Below the pieces are notes generated by a model. The model was given only the letters and a program-made list of their open reading frames with translations. It was not told where the DNA came from and ran no database searches. From positions 10,245 to 74,244 of the IMG/VR virus record IMGVR_UViG_3300034418_008158: a stretch of DNA of 64,000 nucleotides; one strand, written 5' to 3'. The translations under genes and the position numbers were made by a program. Positions 3,865 through 38,832 of this stretch are shown one piece after another (position 1 is the first letter of the stretch; the number at the start of each line of letters is the position of its first letter). Source of the stretch: a virus.

Positions 3865-5918
3865 GCTACTGAATCTTTCTGAGTAGTGTTATCTTCTTCT
3901 TCAATGATTTCAGTAAGATTAATATCAGTATTAAGTACGTAATCTAGTTTAGCCTTAAATACTTCTGGTGAAACTTCTTCAAAAGGTGCATCTCTATAAG
4001 TGCCACCATCATAAGGTAAGACAGATAAACCATTGAAAGTGTGCTTGTACTTCCACATCCAAGCTCCTACTGCATCCCATTCATTTACAACTAAATCTCC
4101 ATCTTGAATATCAGCATTATACGTTAATCCCACATTGTCATCTAGTCCTAATGAATACACCATATCCTTATCTACACTTACAGTAGCAGAAACATTGTTA
4201 GTGTTTGGCCCCCTATTGTGCCCTACTTGAACCCATTCAACATTGAACTTTTTAACTCTTTCTAGCATTTCAAGAGCATTTTCATTATCTCTTATTAATG
4301 CAGTTTGAGGAGCTACTTGAGGAATCCCAATAACAGCAGACATAGGATCATAATCCATCTCTTTTATCAATAATGGATGATTTTTTTTAAAGAAATTATA
4401 AAGATGATCTCCAATTCTACATTGCATATTTCTAATATACATGGCTGAGTGCCAAGCATGTATGCCTGAAGAAGTACCCACTACACAAGAGGTTGTTCCT
4501 GATGGTTTAATAGTAGTAGTTCTTGCAGCTTTGTTAATACCAATAAGATTAGCAACTCTTTCGTTCTCTTTTTTAACTAGTAAAGCAGTTTCTCTAAGAT
4601 TTAAATCATCAATATTCCCATTACAAATACCAGTAATTCCAACACCAATTAAAGCATCTTTTTCAGTATTAGTTTTCCAAATAGTACGAAGATAATGAAA
4701 GTCTGAGAATCCTGCTTGAAGAGTCCCAAAGAAGGCAGCTACTCTAGCTCTTTCATTAAAGTCATTTTGGAATTTAACCCATAATTGCATACCTTCATCC
4801 ATACTCTTTCCATCATACTCAGGACTATCTATTTTTCCTACTAACCCTTCTCCAATAGTTCCAGCATTGATTTCAGTAAGATTACAAAATGTGTAAGGTC
4901 TTAGACTGATCTCACAACATGGATTAGTACCATATTCAGGATCATTAGTAAAGTAAATACCAGGTTCTCCAGAATTTGATTCTACAGTTGTTTGCCATAG
5001 AGTTTGAAACTCTTCTTCCTTTACTCGATTTCTCAAGATGACAGCAGAGTTATTAGCTCTACCTCTTTGAGGGTTGAGTTCCCACCAGTTACCAGCTTTG
5101 GCAGTAGCCATCTCTTTATCATCCATAGAGAATAAAGCAATAAGAGCAGCTCTTCTTATACCACCAGCAAGCACTGCATCAGCTATATAACAACAAATAT
5201 CATGTACTTCAACAGTGGTAAGTTTAGAACCATTTTCTTTTTCGTTTAGAATTGCCTCTATATTTGTTAAACAAATCCTTAAAGGTTCTGGCCCTGGAGC
5301 TTTACCACCAGCAGTTACTAGTCTTTCTCCTTTCTTTCTAATATCAGAATAATCAAATCTAGGTCTTACTTTAGTGATTCCAAAATGTGATTTCATTAAT
5401 TGTTTTACTGCATCAGCCCAGCCTTCAATAGAATCACCTATAAGGTATTTTGCTTCTTTAGTTGGTTGAATAACCTCTGGCAATTCCCTTACATGATGAT
5501 ATTGTATTGAATAGCCAACACCAGTTCCACCTAAAAGTAAAAACATCAGTTCTGAAAAACCTCTGTAATCATTTATTGGCATGTAAGAACAATTGTAGAT
5601 ACGTGCTTCATTCTTCTCTATTGCTGGGCCTGCAAATTGTAGGGCTCTCATTGAAGGTAAAACTTTTTTGTCGTAGAGGTATTGGCTATTGTCGAGAATT
5701 TCTTGTACTAAAGGAGTAAATTCTCCTTCTAAAAATTGAGCTTCAGGCCATGTATTAAAAGCCTCATTATCAAATTGGTTGCCATACTTCTTGATCATCA
5801 TGGTAAGATAACGATTAATGATTTCATTCCAATCTTCTCTACGCTTTTCTTCAGGTAGGTACTTAGCATACTTATTATAGGTGACAATGTTACCTAGGAT
5901 TTCTTGCGTTTTATCCAT
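3834..5918 (-). CDS. nrdJ: class II (adenosylcobalamin-dependent) ribonucleotide reductase
   Basis: LPSMRALQF, YNC, GGTGVGYS, GGIRRAALI, TNPCCEI, CNLTE, TTIKPSGT and C-terminal ACGPSGCEI; no R2 subunit nearby. Confidence 0.92.
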   Translation of the reverse strand: MDKTQEILGNIVTYNKYAKYLPEEKRREDWNEIINRYLTMMIKKYGNQFDNEAFNTWPEAQFLEGEFTPLVQEILDNSQYLYDKKVLPSMRALQFAGPAIEKNEARIYNCSYMPINDYRGFSELMFLLLGGTGVGYSIQYHHVRELPEVIQPTKEAKYLIGDSIEGWADAVKQLMKSHFGITKVRPRFDYSDIRKKGERLVTAGGKAPGPEPLRICLTNIEAILNEKENGSKLTTVEVHDICCYIADAVLAGGIRRAALIALFSMDDKEMATAKAGNWWELNPQRGRANNSAVILRNRVKEEEFQTLWQTTVESNSGEPGIYFTNDPEYGTNPCCEISLRPYTFCNLTEINAGTIGEGLVGKIDSPEYDGKSMDEGMQLWVKFQNDFNERARVAAFFGTLQAGFSDFHYLRTIWKTNTEKDALIGVGITGICNGNIDDLNLRETALLVKKENERVANLIGINKAARTTTIKPSGTTSCVVGTSSGIHAWHSAMYIRNMQCRIGDHLYNFFKKNHPLLIKEMDYDPMSAVIGIPQVAPQTALIRDNENALEMLERVKKFNVEWVQVGHNRGPNTNNVSATVSVDKDMVYSLGLDDNVGLTYNADIQDGDLVVNEWDAVGAWMWKYKHTFNGLSVLPYDGGTYRDAPFEEVSPEVFKAKLDYVLNTDINLTEIIEEEDNTTQKDSVACGPSGCEIL

Positions 5919-21045: not shown

Positions 21046-21069
21046 AAAACTTGATTTAAAGTGTATAAG

Positions 21070-21088
21070 AATTAGTGGGGGTTTTGAA
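21070..21088 (-). promoter_or_regulatory. phage promoter-like motif copy 1 (TTCAAAACCCCCACTAATT)
   Basis: Exact repeat, intergenic, about 25 nt upstream of a minus-strand start. Confidence 0.75.
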
Positions 21089-27215: not shown

Positions 27216-27254
27216 AGAAAACGCATTTATATAAAGTGAGAAAATAGATATAAA

Positions 27255-27273
27255 AATTAGTGGGGGTTTTGAA
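27255..27273 (-). promoter_or_regulatory. phage promoter-like motif copy 2
   Basis: aattagtgggggttttgaa exact copy. Confidence 0.75.
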
Positions 27274-27625: not shown

Positions 27626-27633
27626 CTTAATTG

Positions 27634-28137
27634 TGGAGGTGAAGGGATTTGAACCCTTGTCCAGACATAGCTGCAAAATACAGATTATACAAGCTTTTGT
27701 AGCTGTTCATGTACATTTAACTGGTAGCAATTACAATCTCAAAGAGATAGTCACTAGCACTACTGAGTTTCTTCATTATTTGATTCCTTTATAAACTCTA
27801 AGATAGGAATAGGACTAACCGAAGTTAATCTCCACCATTTACTTTTGAAAAAAGTAACAAAACAAATTAAGAGAGTGTGACACGCCAAACAGTCACATTT
27901 ATGAGGTTGATTTAGCCTAATCCTCCTCTCTAAAAAACTACGCTGCTACCAAAGAATTAACTTTAGGAGAAACATAGATTGCAGTCAGCATATTATGCTC
28001 GTAAGCATTCTTCACCTCTGCGGTATTAATTGATTTGCCAATTAACGGTTCAGTGTATTTTATATAAGTTAGGATAACACCATCCTTCTGCTTGTCTATA
28101 AGTTACACTCTACCCTGTCGATGCCAAGTTCACCCCC
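27634..28137 (-). ncRNA. ssrA: tmRNA (504 nt), tag GKSINTAEVKNAYEHNMLTAIYVSPKVNSLVAA
   Basis: 5' GGGGGUGAACUUGGCAUCGAC; 3' AAGGGUUCAAAUCCCUUCACCUCCA; acceptor stem with G3-U wobble and discriminator A; tag frame 28039-27938 ending AA-stop. Confidence 0.93.
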
Positions 28138-29141: not shown

Positions 29142-29161
29142 AAGTTTATGAATTTAGTTAG

Positions 29162-29235
29162 TGACCCTGCCAGGACTCGAACCTGGAACCTGCTCATCAG
29201 AAGTGAGCTGCTCTATCCAGTTGAGCTACAAAGCC
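29162..29235 (-). tRNA. tRNA-Arg(UCU), CCA not encoded
   Basis: GGCTTTGTAGCTCAACTGGATAGAGC, anticodon arm GCTCA-CTTCTGA-TGAGC, T arm CCAGG-TTCGAGT-CCTGG. Confidence 0.93.
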
Positions 29236-30505: not shown

Positions 30506-30572
30506 TTTTGTGTATTTTAAAGGTTGTTAAATAATAATAATAGGGCCCCAAATCTAAAAGAGAGACACTAAT

Positions 30573-30591
30573 AATTAGTGGGGGTTTTGAA
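30573..30591 (-). promoter_or_regulatory. phage promoter-like motif copy 3
   Basis: Exact copy, preceded on the minus strand by a terminator-like hairpin at about 30606-30636. Confidence 0.75.
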
Positions 30592-32332: not shown

Positions 32333-32777
32333 AAAGTTTAAATTTAAAGCGTTAAAAAGAATAGCAAACTAATAATAATACCAGTTTGCTATTTATTCAA
32401 TTAAAAGTTACCACCGAAATTGTCATTCATATCTTGTGAATTTCTAATACCAGTAGTATTGTAATTAATCTTTGGGACAACAATTTTATTTGATGCTGTC
32501 TTTTTAATAGTTACAATAGGTTTTGCATTCTTTGCCATGTGTGGTGTTTTTAAAAGGTGAACTATAAAGATATTAAATTTATTATTATCAATCCACTAAA
32601 AAATGGGAAACATAATAGGAGACTCTCCTACCATGCTTTCCCATATCTAATAACCAATTGTCCTTATTGTGTATTACTTAAAATAATCTGGATCGCCATC
32701 AGGTTTACCAGGACTACCTGGGCCTAAAGTAAACATTATACAAATAAGTATAAGGCCCACTAATATAAAAGCATCCA

Positions 32778-33149
32778 TTAATGAGAAATTTTTAAGTACT
32801 TACAATAAGGATTATTGGTATTTTTCGACTTGATTAGTACAAAGTATGTGCCTTTCTTCGATACTCTCACAGGCTTGCTGTCATATGTCTCTGAAGTAGG
32901 GCTACCAATCCATACAGGGTAATCATTACCTGTTTTTGGACTGTTGCATATTATGTACAAAGAACCACCATTTGTGGCAAATACATCATAAGATGTGCCA
33001 TCAATCATAATGGTTTCACTTTGATCAATACCAGTTGATACATCAAACCCACCACCTGAAGAGGTAGAAGCTTCAAACTGTACGTTCTGACTATGCAATG
33101 AAGAAGAAATACATATGAATAAAGATAGAATAGGGATTAATTTTTTCAT
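32778..33149 (-). CDS. secreted beta-rich protein
   Basis: Signal peptide MKKLIPILSLFICISSSLHS-Q; internal repeat GSLYIICNSPKTGNDY / GTYFVLIKSKNTNNPY. Confidence 0.65.
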   Translation of the reverse strand: MKKLIPILSLFICISSSLHSQNVQFEASTSSGGGFDVSTGIDQSETIMIDGTSYDVFATNGGSLYIICNSPKTGNDYPVWIGSPTSETYDSKPVRVSKKGTYFVLIKSKNTNNPYCKYLKISH

Positions 33150-33189
33150 GGTTATTAAGTTTTACTAAAAGGTTATTAAATAATATGGT

Positions 33190-34430
33190 AAGATAAAAAG
33201 AAAGACACAAGCCATCATCAGTTAAGCATCTTACGCCTAACCTCAAGCTGTATCTATCTCTTTGGGCCTTAGACCACTTCCAAATTAATGGCTGTTAAAT
33301 ATCTTAATGTGCCATTGAACTACACATTTATCCTGTGCTAGTCTGAGGTCGTTAACCCTCAGTTACTCCCCTGGCAAGGGTGTTTACTGGATTATCATAA
33401 TACAAATTGTTGTGTCACACTCAAGTTATGTGGTAATTAATCACAAAGAGCTTGTTAATATGGTATGAGCCACTGGGTTAAAAATAATGATAGTTTTATA
33501 GCTCTCAGACTAAGGGGCTAATACGACCCAAGATATTGCTATCTAGTTATTTTTATTAAACCTTGTGTTCTCTCACTGCCTTTAGGGAGTTTGTTGGGTT
33601 TAATAAATAAAATGGACTGAGTGCTTTGTCCATTTTGTAAGCGTTAATATCAGCTTTCGCTTCATACACACACTCCCATTACTGGAAGTAGCTTACATAG
33701 TCAGATATAAAGGTTCCCACCTTACTACATTAGCTTTTATAAGATACTTGCTTTCCTACAGTCTCCCCTGGACAGGGATAAACCAACATTCCCATGCTAG
33801 TAAACCAGTAGTAATCCCGTTCTCTTCTCTCTCATAGCTTGAGGCTACTTGAGGTCATCATATTGCAGATGAATAAGACCATTTTCAGGCTAATGTGTTG
33901 ACACGTTTTTTCAGTTTCTTTTAGTTGTCTTGCATGACAATTAACAAAAAATTGGTGCAAGGTGAATAAAGAATGTCCATTGTGAAGAGTGTAGTGTCAA
34001 CTTTATACCATGCTATCCGTTTGAGATAGTTTAAGTATGACACCCTTCTGCGTTCCCCCTGTCAAAGGGTACAATAAGACCATCGCTGGTCTATAACTGT
34101 TAACTATTCAAATAAGCACGATTTTCATCAGAGCTTAACGGAATATAACTGTACTTAGCTTCATTGGCGACAACCAACTACTACATAGTACTATTTAATC
34201 TTCCCTGTTCCTCTTTCGAGGTCAACTCTCCCTTGGACAAAGGAGAATACATCATACTTAGAGCTAACCAGTTGGCCTTGCTCATACCATACAATGTGTG
34301 ATTAAATACCTTTCCATCCACAACTAGTCTAAAGACTAATTGCACAAATCACTTATCTTTATGTGATTCATCTTATACCTATCACTAGGTTTATGGTTAA
34401 GGACATGAAGGCTGCCCTAGTACAAGAGTA
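33190..34430 (-). ncRNA. putative large (about 1.25 kb) highly structured ncRNA
   Basis: No ORF of 60 aa or more on either strand; at least 4 GNRA-capped hairpins on the minus strand; long-range 8-12 bp helices; promoter motif immediately upstream. Confidence 0.75.
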
Positions 34431-34435
34431 CTCAA

Positions 34436-34454
34436 AATTAGTGGGGGTTTTGAA
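34436..34454 (-). promoter_or_regulatory. phage promoter-like motif copy 4 (upstream of the large ncRNA)
   Basis: Exact copy; terminator hairpin at 34470-34508 just upstream. Confidence 0.75.
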
Positions 34455-34521
34455 GGTAGGTCAGATAAATAAAAAAGAGTAGCCTAATCCTAAGATTAAA
34501 CTACTCTCAACTATCACATCA

Positions 34522-34926
34522 CTATTTCATATCCCTATAATACCTTATTAAGGCATTAAGGTATTTTATTTTTTGCTTATGGATGATTTTTCTATTCCTA
34601 TTTATCATGTCTTCATCAGGCAAAAAAGTAGAATTATCCAGATTGTAGTGGTAGTCCCACCATCCCCAATATAAGTATTTCATTGTTCTCTCATCACCCT
34701 GATACATAAGATGATTGTATCTTTTATGAAATAATGTAGAAGAGGGTTTGACAAGGATATCGTCTGCTGTAAAATCCTTGTATTCTTTATACCCCTTCAT
34801 ACTATCCATGTACCTCCTTAAATGAATGCACAGATAGTAGTTTGCTGTTGGTTTAGCAAGTAAATCTCTTTTTAGACAAGATAATAGTAGTATTATCTTG
34901 TCTATTTGTTTCTCTTTTAGTTTCAT
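34522..34926 (-). CDS. hypothetical protein
   Basis: 134-aa ORF followed by a terminator. Confidence 0.6.
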   Translation of the reverse strand: MKLKEKQIDKIILLLSCLKRDLLAKPTANYYLCIHLRRYMDSMKGYKEYKDFTADDILVKPSSTLFHKRYNHLMYQGDERTMKYLYWGWWDYHYNLDNSTFLPDEDMINRNRKIIHKQKIKYLNALIRYYRDMK

Positions 34927-35963: not shown

Positions 35964-35998
35964 AATAAAGATTTTAAATGTGAAAAATTAATACTCAA

Positions 35999-36017
35999 AA
36001 TTAGTGGGGGTTTTGCA
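35999..36017 (-). promoter_or_regulatory. phage promoter-like motif copy 5
   Basis: aattagtgggggttttgca. Confidence 0.72.
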
Positions 36018-36309
36018 GTCAGGTGTAAGGCGTAATAAAAAGGCTATAATAATGATGATCCTGAAAAAAGAGAAAATATTTGAGGTTTGTATTTGGGGGA
36101 ATGGGTATAAGGCCTCACTTACTTGACTGAGTATCAAGGAGTTATGCTTCCCAAAAGGGATAATTTGTGAGAGATTGTCCCTAAAATTTCACCCTCTCTC
36201 CCCCAATTAAGAGGTTTGATAACATAATACTTACACTGTTTCCCTAATACCTAGAGACTAATTAATAAGGGCTAAGTCAAGTCTTGCCCTCTAAGGAATT
36301 AGGTTAAAG

Positions 36310-36349
36310 AAAAAAGAAGAGAGACACCTAATATGGCATCTCTCTTCTT
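36310..36349 (-). terminator. intrinsic terminator
   Basis: AAGAAGAGAGA...TCTCTCTTCTT hairpin plus U-run. Confidence 0.75.
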
Positions 36350-36350
36350 A

Positions 36351-37167: not shown

Positions 37168-37277
37168 AATCAGAGGGGGTTTTCAACAGGATCACCACCA
37201 CTGAGCAGCATCTTTGTACATGATATTATTCACGCCAGAGATTTCCTTTACTGCTGAAAATTGGTGGGGGTATTTAA
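37168..37277 (-). promoter_or_regulatory. two degenerate promoter-like motif copies (37168-37186 and 37259-37277)
   Basis: aatcagagggggttttcaa and aattggtgggggtatttaa. Confidence 0.55.
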
Positions 37278-38420: not shown

Positions 38421-38776
38421 AATTCTGATTGTTGTTGTAGCCTATCTCTTAGGAGAAGGCAGATGAAGATAAAAATTAAAGTTTTAAGAATCATAATCTA
38501 TTGATTTTCAAGGTGTTAAGGGGATTATGAATGACAAAAGAAAAAGAACCAAAAAGAAAACCTTATACTTATTCTCTTTATCAACTCGTTGTGACTTCGT
38601 TCTCGCAGGATTATCTCTTCTTTGAAGAGTCAACCTTCGGTGACAAGTTACACTTTTTTTTTGACAATTGGTGCATTTTCATAAATTATTTTTAAATTAT
38701 TTTTCAGAGCCTTGTAGCAGCAGATTATTTTGGCTCTAGGTATTTTATATTTTGTTAAGAAAAAAATTAAAAGAAA

Positions 38777-38810
38777 GGTTTGTTATTGTTAAATATATTC
38801 TTAACTTTGT
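38777..38810 (+). promoter_or_regulatory. Bacteroidota sigma70-type promoter (TTTG ... TAACTTTG) for the structural block
   Basis: ggtttg at about 38777 and TAACTTTG at about 38802, upstream of ATG 38833. Confidence 0.6.
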
Positions 38811-38832
38811 TTCAGATTAAAATGTATCTATA

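What the first reader, a model, noticed from the sequence alone, without database searches (positions are those of the whole stretch)
33190..34430. About 1.25-kb ORF-free, ornately structured RNA with its own phage promoter: candidate new class of giant phage ncRNA
Seen: no ORF of 60 aa or more in about 1.37 kb of an otherwise gene-dense genome. A terminator (34470-34508) and a promoter-like motif (34436-34454) lie directly upstream on the minus strand. Minus-strand GNRA-capped hairpins: CCUC-GAAA-GAGG (34210-34221), AGACCA-GCGA-UGGUCU (34077-34092), AGC-GAAA-GCU (33652-33661), AGAUA-GCAA-UAUCU (33531-33544). Long-range complementarity: perfect 12 bp between 34280-34291 and 33459-33470 (about 820 nt apart); 12 bp between 33836-33847 and 33238-33249 with one G-U that works only on the minus strand; 9 bp 34252-34260/34032-34040; 8 bp 33994-34001/33897-33904. 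The two longest helices cross, implying a global pseudoknot or intermolecular pairing. Established: large phage ncRNAs such as GOLLD and ROOL exist and are typically shorter. Inference: this is a large structured RNA (scaffold/cage, sponge or ribozyme) that I cannot assign to a known family.
Basis: partly seen in the sequence, partly recalled or inferred. Interest (0 to 1): 0.92.

Follow-up and report, generated by a model that had tools for sequence, protein, structure and literature searches.

The report
Divergent GOLLD RNA in freshwater crAss-like phage
The gene-free 1.25 kb of this freshwater crAss-like phage is not a new RNA class: about 815 nt of it is a very diverged copy of GOLLD, a known giant phage RNA that builds RNA-only cages, followed by about 420 nt of unexplained tail.

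Summary
33150-34521 has no ORF under any stop-codon reading. It starts behind a terminator and a promoter-like motif that recurs six times, and it is packed with minus-strand GNRA hairpins (8 seen, 1 expected).

The "new class" reading does not hold. Minus strand 34048-33614 aligns end to end with the Rfam GOLLD model, which covers the family's conserved 3' domain (51.7 bits, E about 1e-12, below the 150-bit cut-off). 64 of 77 consensus pairs form. The family's pseudoknot, which the model does not score, forms 9 of 10 pairs at the aligned positions (P about 8e-5). The 380 nt upstream fits GOLLD's variable 5' domain.

The last 424 nt (33613-33190) have no counterpart in GOLLD, and their status is open.

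No homologue was found in 80 related phage contigs, three cultured relatives or any pattern scan, so there is no covariation test.

This scan has already flagged diverged GOLLDs in other crAss-like phages. The open papers searched never mention GOLLD together with crAss-like phages.

The parts
34475..34508 (-). Intrinsic-terminator-like hairpin closing the upstream 134-aa gene
   Evidence: 15-pair stem, 4-nt loop, T run.
34433..34456 (-). Promoter-like motif CTTCAAAACCCCCACTAATTTTG. The transcript probably starts near 34428 (inferred).
   Evidence: Six copies in the window, all on the minus strand, 0 expected. Aligned. Also present in relatives. This copy ends in TAATTTTG, which fits the TAnnTTTG form of Bacteroidota -7 boxes (my own knowledge). 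Only 2 of the 6 copies do.
34049..34430 (-). Putative variable 5' domain of the GOLLD-like RNA (about 380 nt). It carries GNRA-capped hairpins at 34390-34377, 34221-34210, 34130-34119 and 34092-34077.
   Evidence: GNRA count. Fold z-score is -5.2 on the minus strand and -1.5 on the plus strand. Contigs from two metatranscriptome libraries lie on 33979-34410. No Rfam model exists for this domain, so homology could not be tested.
33614..34048 (-). GOLLD conserved 3' domain (Rfam RF02032, model positions 1-416)
   Evidence: 51.7 bits, E 3e-12 to 4e-14, untruncated. Of 77 nested consensus pairs, 57 are Watson-Crick, 7 are G-U, 8 are non-canonical and 5 are deleted.
33984..34048 (-). Long first hairpin of the 3' domain (P14-like), 20 of 23 pairs
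33897..33983 (-). A/U-rich variable linker with a 16-nt inserted hairpin. It corresponds to the disordered linker of solved GOLLD structures.
   Evidence: Alignment. The linker is described in PMC12286853.
33887..33896 (-). Pseudoknot, 5' strand (ACAUUAGCCU)
   Evidence: 9 of 10 Watson-Crick pairs with 33736-33727, at the columns the model marks as pseudoknot. The covariance model does not score these pairs. P about 8e-5 for random pairs of 10-mers from this RNA.
33727..33736 (-). Pseudoknot, 3' strand (AAGCUAAUGU)
33671..33690 (-). Conserved hairpin UACUUCCA-GUAA-UGGGAGUG (8 of 8 pairs), nested in the 6-bp helix 33696-33691/33642-33637
33615..33630 (-). Last hairpin of the model. Its loop keeps the family's CUCAG. 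It is followed by AUUUUAUUUAUU.
   Evidence: That the U-rich run marks a 3' end is inference only.
33190..33613 (-). 3' tail of 424 nt of unknown status: an extra RNA domain, the leader of the 123-aa gene, or a spacer
   Evidence: In favour of RNA: G+C is raised as in the RNA body, 0.35-0.41 against 0.25-0.34 in the flanks. It holds one CCCU...AGGG hairpin (33380-33369) of a module seen 3 times in this 1.24 kb and only twice in the other 63 kb. It holds one GNRA hairpin (33544-33531). Against: no GNRA enrichment, no Rfam match, and a strain variant lacks or replaces 33059-33326.

Best explanation
The stretch is the gene for a strongly diverged GOLLD-family RNA, carried by a freshwater crAss-like phage whose nearest cultured relatives infect Flavobacterium.

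Inferred: transcription starts about 34428, behind a phage promoter-like motif, and runs on the minus strand.

Shown:
- 34048-33614 has the architecture of the universally conserved GOLLD 3' domain, in the order long first hairpin, A/U-rich linker, pseudoknot, series of hairpins.
- The 380 nt in front of it are dense in GNRA-capped hairpins, as expected for GOLLD's variable 5' domain.

Inferred from solved GOLLD structures, not shown here: the RNA self-assembles through loop-loop and A-minor contacts into a closed homo-oligomeric cage (10 to 14 copies). It would act during infection as a container or scaffold, possibly for parts of the translation machinery, since this phage also carries a tRNA and a tmRNA. 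The biological role of GOLLD is unknown for the whole family.

The RNA is an accessory cassette. In the closest relatives, three small ORFs follow the same promoter-like motif upstream of the homologue of the 123-aa gene.

Whether the 424-nt tail belongs to the mature RNA is undecided; I put it at about even odds.
For: - Full-length, untruncated cmscan and the genome search match to RF02032: 51.7 bits, E 3e-12 to 4e-14. It is the only match at E <= 10 in the 74-kb record.
- The same search gives nothing at E <= 0.01 in 80 related contigs, so it is not a compositional artefact of this lineage.
- 64 of 77 consensus pairs are canonical.
- The pseudoknot forms 9 of 10 pairs, with both strands different from the consensus.
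- GNRA hairpins: 8 seen against 0.96 expected on the minus strand, none on the plus strand.
- The location fits the family: phage-borne, on the same strand as a tRNA-Arg and a tmRNA 4 to 6 kb downstream, and from fresh water.
- PMC12286853 and PMC12990946 define GOLLD as a conserved 3' domain plus a variable 5' domain, found in phages near tRNA genes. PMC12286853 collected members with cmsearch at E < 1e-5.
- Contigs from two metatranscriptome libraries of different studies lie on 33979-34410. This is weak, because DNA carry-over is not excluded.
- Accessory status.
Against: - The score is a third of Rfam's gathering cut-off (51.7 against 150 bits).
- The hit disappears when 22 kb or 64 kb are searched at once, because of the speed filters.
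- No homologue of this particular RNA was found, so no helix has covariation support from relatives. The comparison is with the family model only.
- The 5' domain could not be compared with any GOLLD 5' domain.
- One consensus hairpin (33718-33703) fits poorly, with 4 of 6 pairs.
- The gene-free space is 1.24 kb, against 700-833 nt for the GOLLDs with solved structures.
- Transcript ends, expression and oligomer formation are all unmeasured.
Confidence: 0.8

Rival explanations
1. One 1.24-kb 'extended GOLLD': the 424-nt tail is a third domain of the same RNA. It would dock on the 5' domain through the helix 34291-34280/33470-33459 and carry partner sites for cage contacts.
For: - No second promoter-like motif (TAnnTTTG) and no scan-detected terminator lie between 34433 and the next gene.
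- G+C is raised over the tail as over the body.
- The tail holds one of the three CCCU...AGGG hairpins that are otherwise almost confined to this RNA; about 0.013 such hairpins would be expected in 424 nt from the rate in the rest of the window (my own Poisson estimate from the counts).
- The 12-bp helix is in the centroid fold of the whole stretch.
- Two strain variants inside its 3' arm (33462, 33464) both keep pairing as G-U on the minus strand (chance 1 in 4).
- The hairpin loops have 5-6-nt complements elsewhere in the RNA (35 of 5000 shuffles, chosen post hoc).
Against: - A 12-bp helix is found in 6% of shuffles.
- The tail shows no GNRA enrichment and no family match.
- A variant contig lacks or replaces 33059-33326.
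- The tail has more strain differences than the core (8 in 288 nt against 0 in 573 nt). These come from low-depth contigs that may belong to different strains.
Confidence: 0.35
2. A new class of giant RNA unrelated to GOLLD; the Rfam match would be convergent or spurious.
For: The score is far below the curated cut-off. Two thirds of the stretch has no family match.
Against: E is about 1e-12 over all 416 model positions. The unscored pseudoknot is also preserved at the aligned columns. The element order, the linker and the phage context all fit GOLLD.
Confidence: 0.07
3. The stretch is mainly a long structured 5' leader or regulatory region of the downstream 123-aa gene (32778-33149), or a decaying spacer without a function of its own.
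For: No terminator was detected before the 123-aa gene. In relatives the same promoter-like motif drives small ORFs followed by the homologue of that gene.
Against: The GOLLD match and the strand-specific GNRA enrichment are not expected from a spacer. No remnant of the relatives' ORFs is detectable. A 1.2-kb leader would be exceptional in a gene-dense phage.
Confidence: 0.06

Closest known systems
GOLLD RNA (Rfam RF02032; solved as the env-38 14-mer and the Streptococcus agalactiae 12-mer cages, PMC12286853 and PMC12990946)
   Same: - The 3' domain aligns over the whole model and the pseudoknot is preserved.
- An A/U-rich linker is present, and a structured, non-alignable region of about 380 nt lies upstream.
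- It is phage-encoded, on the same strand as tRNA and tmRNA genes, and comes from lake-type water.
   Different: - The score is a third of the curated cut-off.
- Several hairpins are shortened or carry inserts. One is a 31-nt insert that forms an 8-bp GNRA hairpin at 33801-33782.
- The hairpin aligned to a GNRA-capped consensus hairpin (loop GCAA) has a GUCC loop in a CCCU/AGGG stem, and that module is repeated in the RNA.
- About 420 nt of extra sequence follow the last family hairpin.
- The host phage is a crAss-like virus of probable Flavobacteriia. No paper in the searched library mentions GOLLD together with this group.
ROOL RNA (phage and prophage cage-forming RNA)
   Same: A large, ornate, phage-borne RNA near tRNA genes, presumably forming a cage.
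   Different: No ROOL match even at E <= 10. ROOL is an unrelated fold.
Abundant early long non-coding RNAs of crAss-like Cellulophaga phage phi14:2 (bioRxiv 10.1101/2020.03.07.982082)
   Same: Long gene-free, highly transcribed stretches in the early region of an aquatic crAss-like phage.
   Different: phi14:2 has no GOLLD match anywhere and no sequence similarity to this RNA. Part of its gene-free region matches tmRNA instead.

Membership tests
GOLLD (RF02032) | Conserved 3' domain (P14-P27) recognisable by the family covariance model | tested here: met
   Model positions 1-416 aligned without truncation, E 3e-12 and 3.7e-14. 64 of 77 pairs are canonical. This passes the E < 1e-5 criterion that PMC12286853 used to collect GOLLDs.
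GOLLD (RF02032) | Rfam curated gathering score (150 bits) | tested here: not met
   51.7 bits. This is an operational cut-off, not a structural feature. I therefore call the RNA a diverged variant, not a standard member.
GOLLD (RF02032) | Pseudoknot between the linker-side strand and the strand after the P21-like helices | tested here: met
   33896-33887 pairs with 33736-33727 in 9 of 10 Watson-Crick pairs, at the annotated columns. P about 8e-5. The covariance model does not score these pairs.
GOLLD (RF02032) | Variable, structured 5' domain of roughly 300-420 nt directly upstream | tested here: inconclusive
   About 380 nt lie between the promoter-like motif and the 3' domain, with 4 GNRA-capped hairpins. 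No model or sequences of known 5' domains were available for comparison.
GOLLD (RF02032) | Single-stranded variable linker early in the 3' domain | tested here: met
   33983-33897, A/U-rich, aligned to the model's linker columns.
GOLLD (RF02032) | Encoded in phages or prophages, often next to tRNA genes | tested here: met
   Crassvirales contig. tRNA-Arg at 29161-29235 and tmRNA at 27631-28137 lie on the same strand. They are 4 to 6 kb away, not adjacent.
GOLLD (RF02032) | Homo-oligomeric RNA-only cage | not testable with these tools
   Needs in vitro transcription followed by mass photometry or cryo-EM.
ROOL, OLE, group I/II introns, other Rfam families | Match to the family covariance model | tested here: not met
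   Nothing but GOLLD below E = 2 in 32900-34700, on either strand.

The most novel reading that the evidence does not exclude
This is an enlarged, three-part GOLLD of about 1.24 kb. Its extra 3' domain and its repeated CCCU-loop-AGGG hairpins would replace the canonical inter-subunit contacts: the loop UGUCCA pairs with UGGACA in the linker and in the last hairpin, and the loop UUGACA pairs with UGUCAA. The result would be a cage of different geometry, in a phage order (Crassvirales) where GOLLD has not been described.
Probability: 0.25. Interest if true: 0.6.

Novelty: new variant of a known kind. Interest (0 to 1): 0.4.

Why it matters
GOLLD is one of the few natural RNAs known to build protein-free cages, and what it does is still unknown.

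- A copy this diverged still keeps the 3'-domain helices and the pseudoknot. That shows which parts of the fold are indispensable.
- It extends the family to crAss-like phages of freshwater Bacteroidota.
- It shows that standard annotation misses such members. The hit appears only when a short stretch is searched, so the family is probably much wider in viromes than its catalogue suggests.
- If the 3' tail belongs to the RNA, it offers a natural experiment on how added domains change cage assembly.

Tried and rejected
- Recoded stop codons (TAG=Q, TGA=W, TAA=Q) open no long ORF.
- Homologue hunt, all empty:
  - blastn 'distant' against 50,697 phage records;
  - the flanking 134-aa and 123-aa proteins in IMG/VR;
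  - the 134-aa protein among 5.8 billion proteins, which found only its own cluster;
  - five words or structure-aware patterns in viral contigs;
  - two metagenome scans (one search found nothing; one search gave one hit, L094, which has no Rfam match);
  - one genome scan (one Thermoplasmata contig, presumably chance, not checked);
  - nhmmer against all 348 kb of fetched loci.
- RF02032 found nothing in 80 contigs related by major capsid protein, in phi14:2, or in Flavobacterium phages FpV4 and FPSV-S29.
- Folding z-scores were rejected as evidence, because coding controls score as well. My own shuffle script timed out.
- Read laying: the two RNA libraries have no contigs on the flanking genes or on 33190-33978. 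Missing cover proves nothing and is not used as evidence. The 0-in-573 against 1-9% difference densities come from low-depth contigs of possibly different strains and are only a hint.
- The tail is not a decayed copy of the relatives' small ORFs.
- Sequences of solved GOLLDs from paper supplements were not typed into tools, so the 5' domain was not compared with them.

Full report
**Setting.** The window is 64 kb of a 74-kb IMG/VR virus record. The major capsid protein matches the Crassvirus capsid family at E 3e-151. The nearest cultured relatives are Flavobacterium psychrophilum phages FpV4 and kin, at 72% capsid identity. Public runs that hold the stretch are freshwater, sediment and estuary metagenomes.

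**Observation.**
- Between the stop of a 134-aa gene (34522) and the start of a 123-aa gene (33149) there is no ORF of 60 aa or more. Reading TAG, TGA or TAA as sense opens none.
- The upstream gene ends in a 15-pair terminator-like hairpin at 34508-34475.
- Directly after it lies TTCAAAACCCCCACTAATTT. This motif occurs six times in the window, always on the minus strand and before gene blocks, against none expected. It recurs in related phages.

**What is more than chance.**
- GNRA-capped hairpins with stems of 4 bp or more: 8 on the minus strand against 0.96 expected (0 of 500 dinucleotide shuffles reach 8), none on the plus strand, and about 1 per kb elsewhere in the genome. Seven of the eight lie in 33614-34430.
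- The long-range helices are not special. A perfect 12-mer helix appears in 6% of shuffles, and the best Watson-Crick plus G-U helix is ordinary.
- Folding z-scores are useless here, because neighbouring coding regions reach -4.0 and -3.6.

**Identity.**
- At Rfam's gathering thresholds the window yields only a tmRNA and a tRNA.
- When the short stretch is searched with permissive filters, the minus strand 34048-33614 matches GOLLD (RF02032) over model positions 1-416 without truncation: 51.7 bits, E 3e-12. The whole-record search gives the same single hit at E 3.7e-14.
- The hit is lost when 22 kb are searched at once. That explains why routine annotation would miss it.
- Projecting the consensus structure onto the sequence gives 57 Watson-Crick and 7 G-U pairs out of 77, with 8 mismatched and 5 deleted.
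- The model's pseudoknot is annotated but not scored by a covariance model. It falls on 33896-33887 and 33736-33727, which form 9 of 10 Watson-Crick pairs with a sequence quite unlike the consensus. Only 8e-5 of random pairs of 10-mers from this RNA do as well, and no neighbouring offset within ±5 nt on either strand reaches 9 pairs. I take this as independent support for homology.
- According to PMC12286853 and PMC12990946, GOLLD consists of a universally conserved 3' domain (P14-P27) and a variable 5' domain of up to about 420 nt. It lies in phages and prophages near tRNA genes. Members were collected at cmsearch E < 1e-5. Solved members of 700-833 nt form 12- and 14-mer cages.
- The RF02032 model corresponds to the 3' domain.
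- The 380 nt between the promoter-like motif and 34048, with four GNRA hairpins, fit the 5' domain.
- Promoter to last family hairpin is about 815 nt, which is GOLLD-sized.

33836-33847 is itself the consensus hairpin UAGC-CUCAA-GCUA, and 34032-34040 is part of the P14-like helix. Their proposed distant partners compete with conserved local structure, so the 'crossing helices' argument falls.

**The tail.** 33613-33190 (424 nt) has no counterpart in the family model and no Rfam match.
- For its being RNA:
  - G+C stays raised.
  - No further TAnnTTTG box and no scan-detected terminator lie before the next gene.
  - It holds one GNRA hairpin.
  - It holds one of three CCCU-loop-AGGG hairpins that are almost confined to this 1.24 kb: 3 here and 2 in the other 63 kb.
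  - The 12-bp helix to the 5' domain is in the centroid fold, and two strain variants in it keep pairing as G-U.
- Against:
  - There is no GNRA enrichment.
  - The helix is within chance.
  - A strain variant lacks or replaces 33059-33326.
- I leave this at roughly even odds.

**Distribution.** None of 80 contigs with 70-89% identical capsid protein has a GOLLD match, nor do phi14:2 or two Flavobacterium phages. In the closest relative the same promoter-like motif is followed by three small ORFs and then by the homologue of the 123-aa gene. There is no trace of those ORFs here. The RNA is therefore an accessory cassette in a hypervariable early region. All other attempts to find a homologue failed and are listed under Tried and rejected, so covariation among relatives of this RNA could not be tested.

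**Expression.** Contigs of two metatranscriptome libraries from different studies lie on 33979-34410 at 99% identity or more. This shows presence in RNA libraries only. DNA carry-over and transcript ends cannot be judged from contigs.

**Mechanism.**
- Shown: the GOLLD 3'-domain architecture with its pseudoknot, a strand-specific ornate fold, and a promoter-like motif.
- Inferred from solved structures of other members: self-assembly into a closed multimeric cage.
- Unknown for the whole family: the biological role.
- The proposals in the literature are encapsulation or scaffolding of tRNAs, ribosomes or other cargo. They sit well with a phage that also carries a tRNA and a tmRNA, but nothing here tests them.

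**Novelty.** The RNA belongs to a known kind, so the 'new class' claim is withdrawn. It is a strongly diverged variant, below the curated cut-off, with altered hairpins and a possible extra domain. It lies in a phage order for which the searched literature holds no GOLLD report. Earlier follow-ups of this same scan reported diverged GOLLDs in other crAss-like phages. Those are unchecked notes, but they agree with this reading.

Noticed in passing
window 27631-28137 (-); L092 5970-6417; L093 10998-11389; L096 (NC_021806) 4031-4502: This crAss-like lineage carries a phage tmRNA: 67 bits in the window and 83-99 bits in two relatives. ARAGORN does not call it in the window. In Cellulophaga phage phi14:2 the long gene-free region reported as an abundant early 'long non-coding RNA' also matches tmRNA (46 bits against a cut-off of 47, E 3.6e-16). 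One of those unexplained RNAs may therefore be a tmRNA.
   Followed up: partly
window 21069-21088, 27254-27273, 30572-30591, 34435-34454, 35998-36017, 37258-37277 (all -): A promoter-like motif with the core AAAACCCCCACTAATTTT heads the minus-strand gene blocks and is conserved in related phages. Which polymerase reads it is unknown.
   Followed up: partly
window 34069-34057, 33777-33766, 33380-33369 (-), plus the variant at 34250-34228: A repeated CCCU-loop-AGGG hairpin module. The loops UGUCCA and UUGACA have exact 6-nt complements (UGGACA at 33979 and 33632, UGUCAA at 33903), which could be kissing partners. The joint occurrence is seen in 35 of 5000 shuffles, but the motifs were chosen post hoc.
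   Followed up: partly
L092 5010-5152 (-) and L093 12176-12318 (+): A tRNA match spanning 143 nt in both close relatives, that is, a tRNA gene with an insertion of about 70 nt.
   Followed up: no
window 33059-33326: One contig of a freshwater DNA run joins 33058 to 33327. It lacks or replaces the 3' end of the gene-free stretch and the first 30 codons of the 123-aa gene.
   Followed up: no
window 33614-34048: Method note: the GOLLD match is reported when 1.5-1.8 kb are searched, and by the genome search, but not when 22 kb or 64 kb go into one cmscan call. The cause is the speed filters.
   Followed up: yes
window 32333-32777, 35964-36350, 38421-38832: Three further stretches of 390-445 nt without ORFs of 60 aa or more in the same early region. 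None has an Rfam match at E <= 0.05.
   Followed up: no
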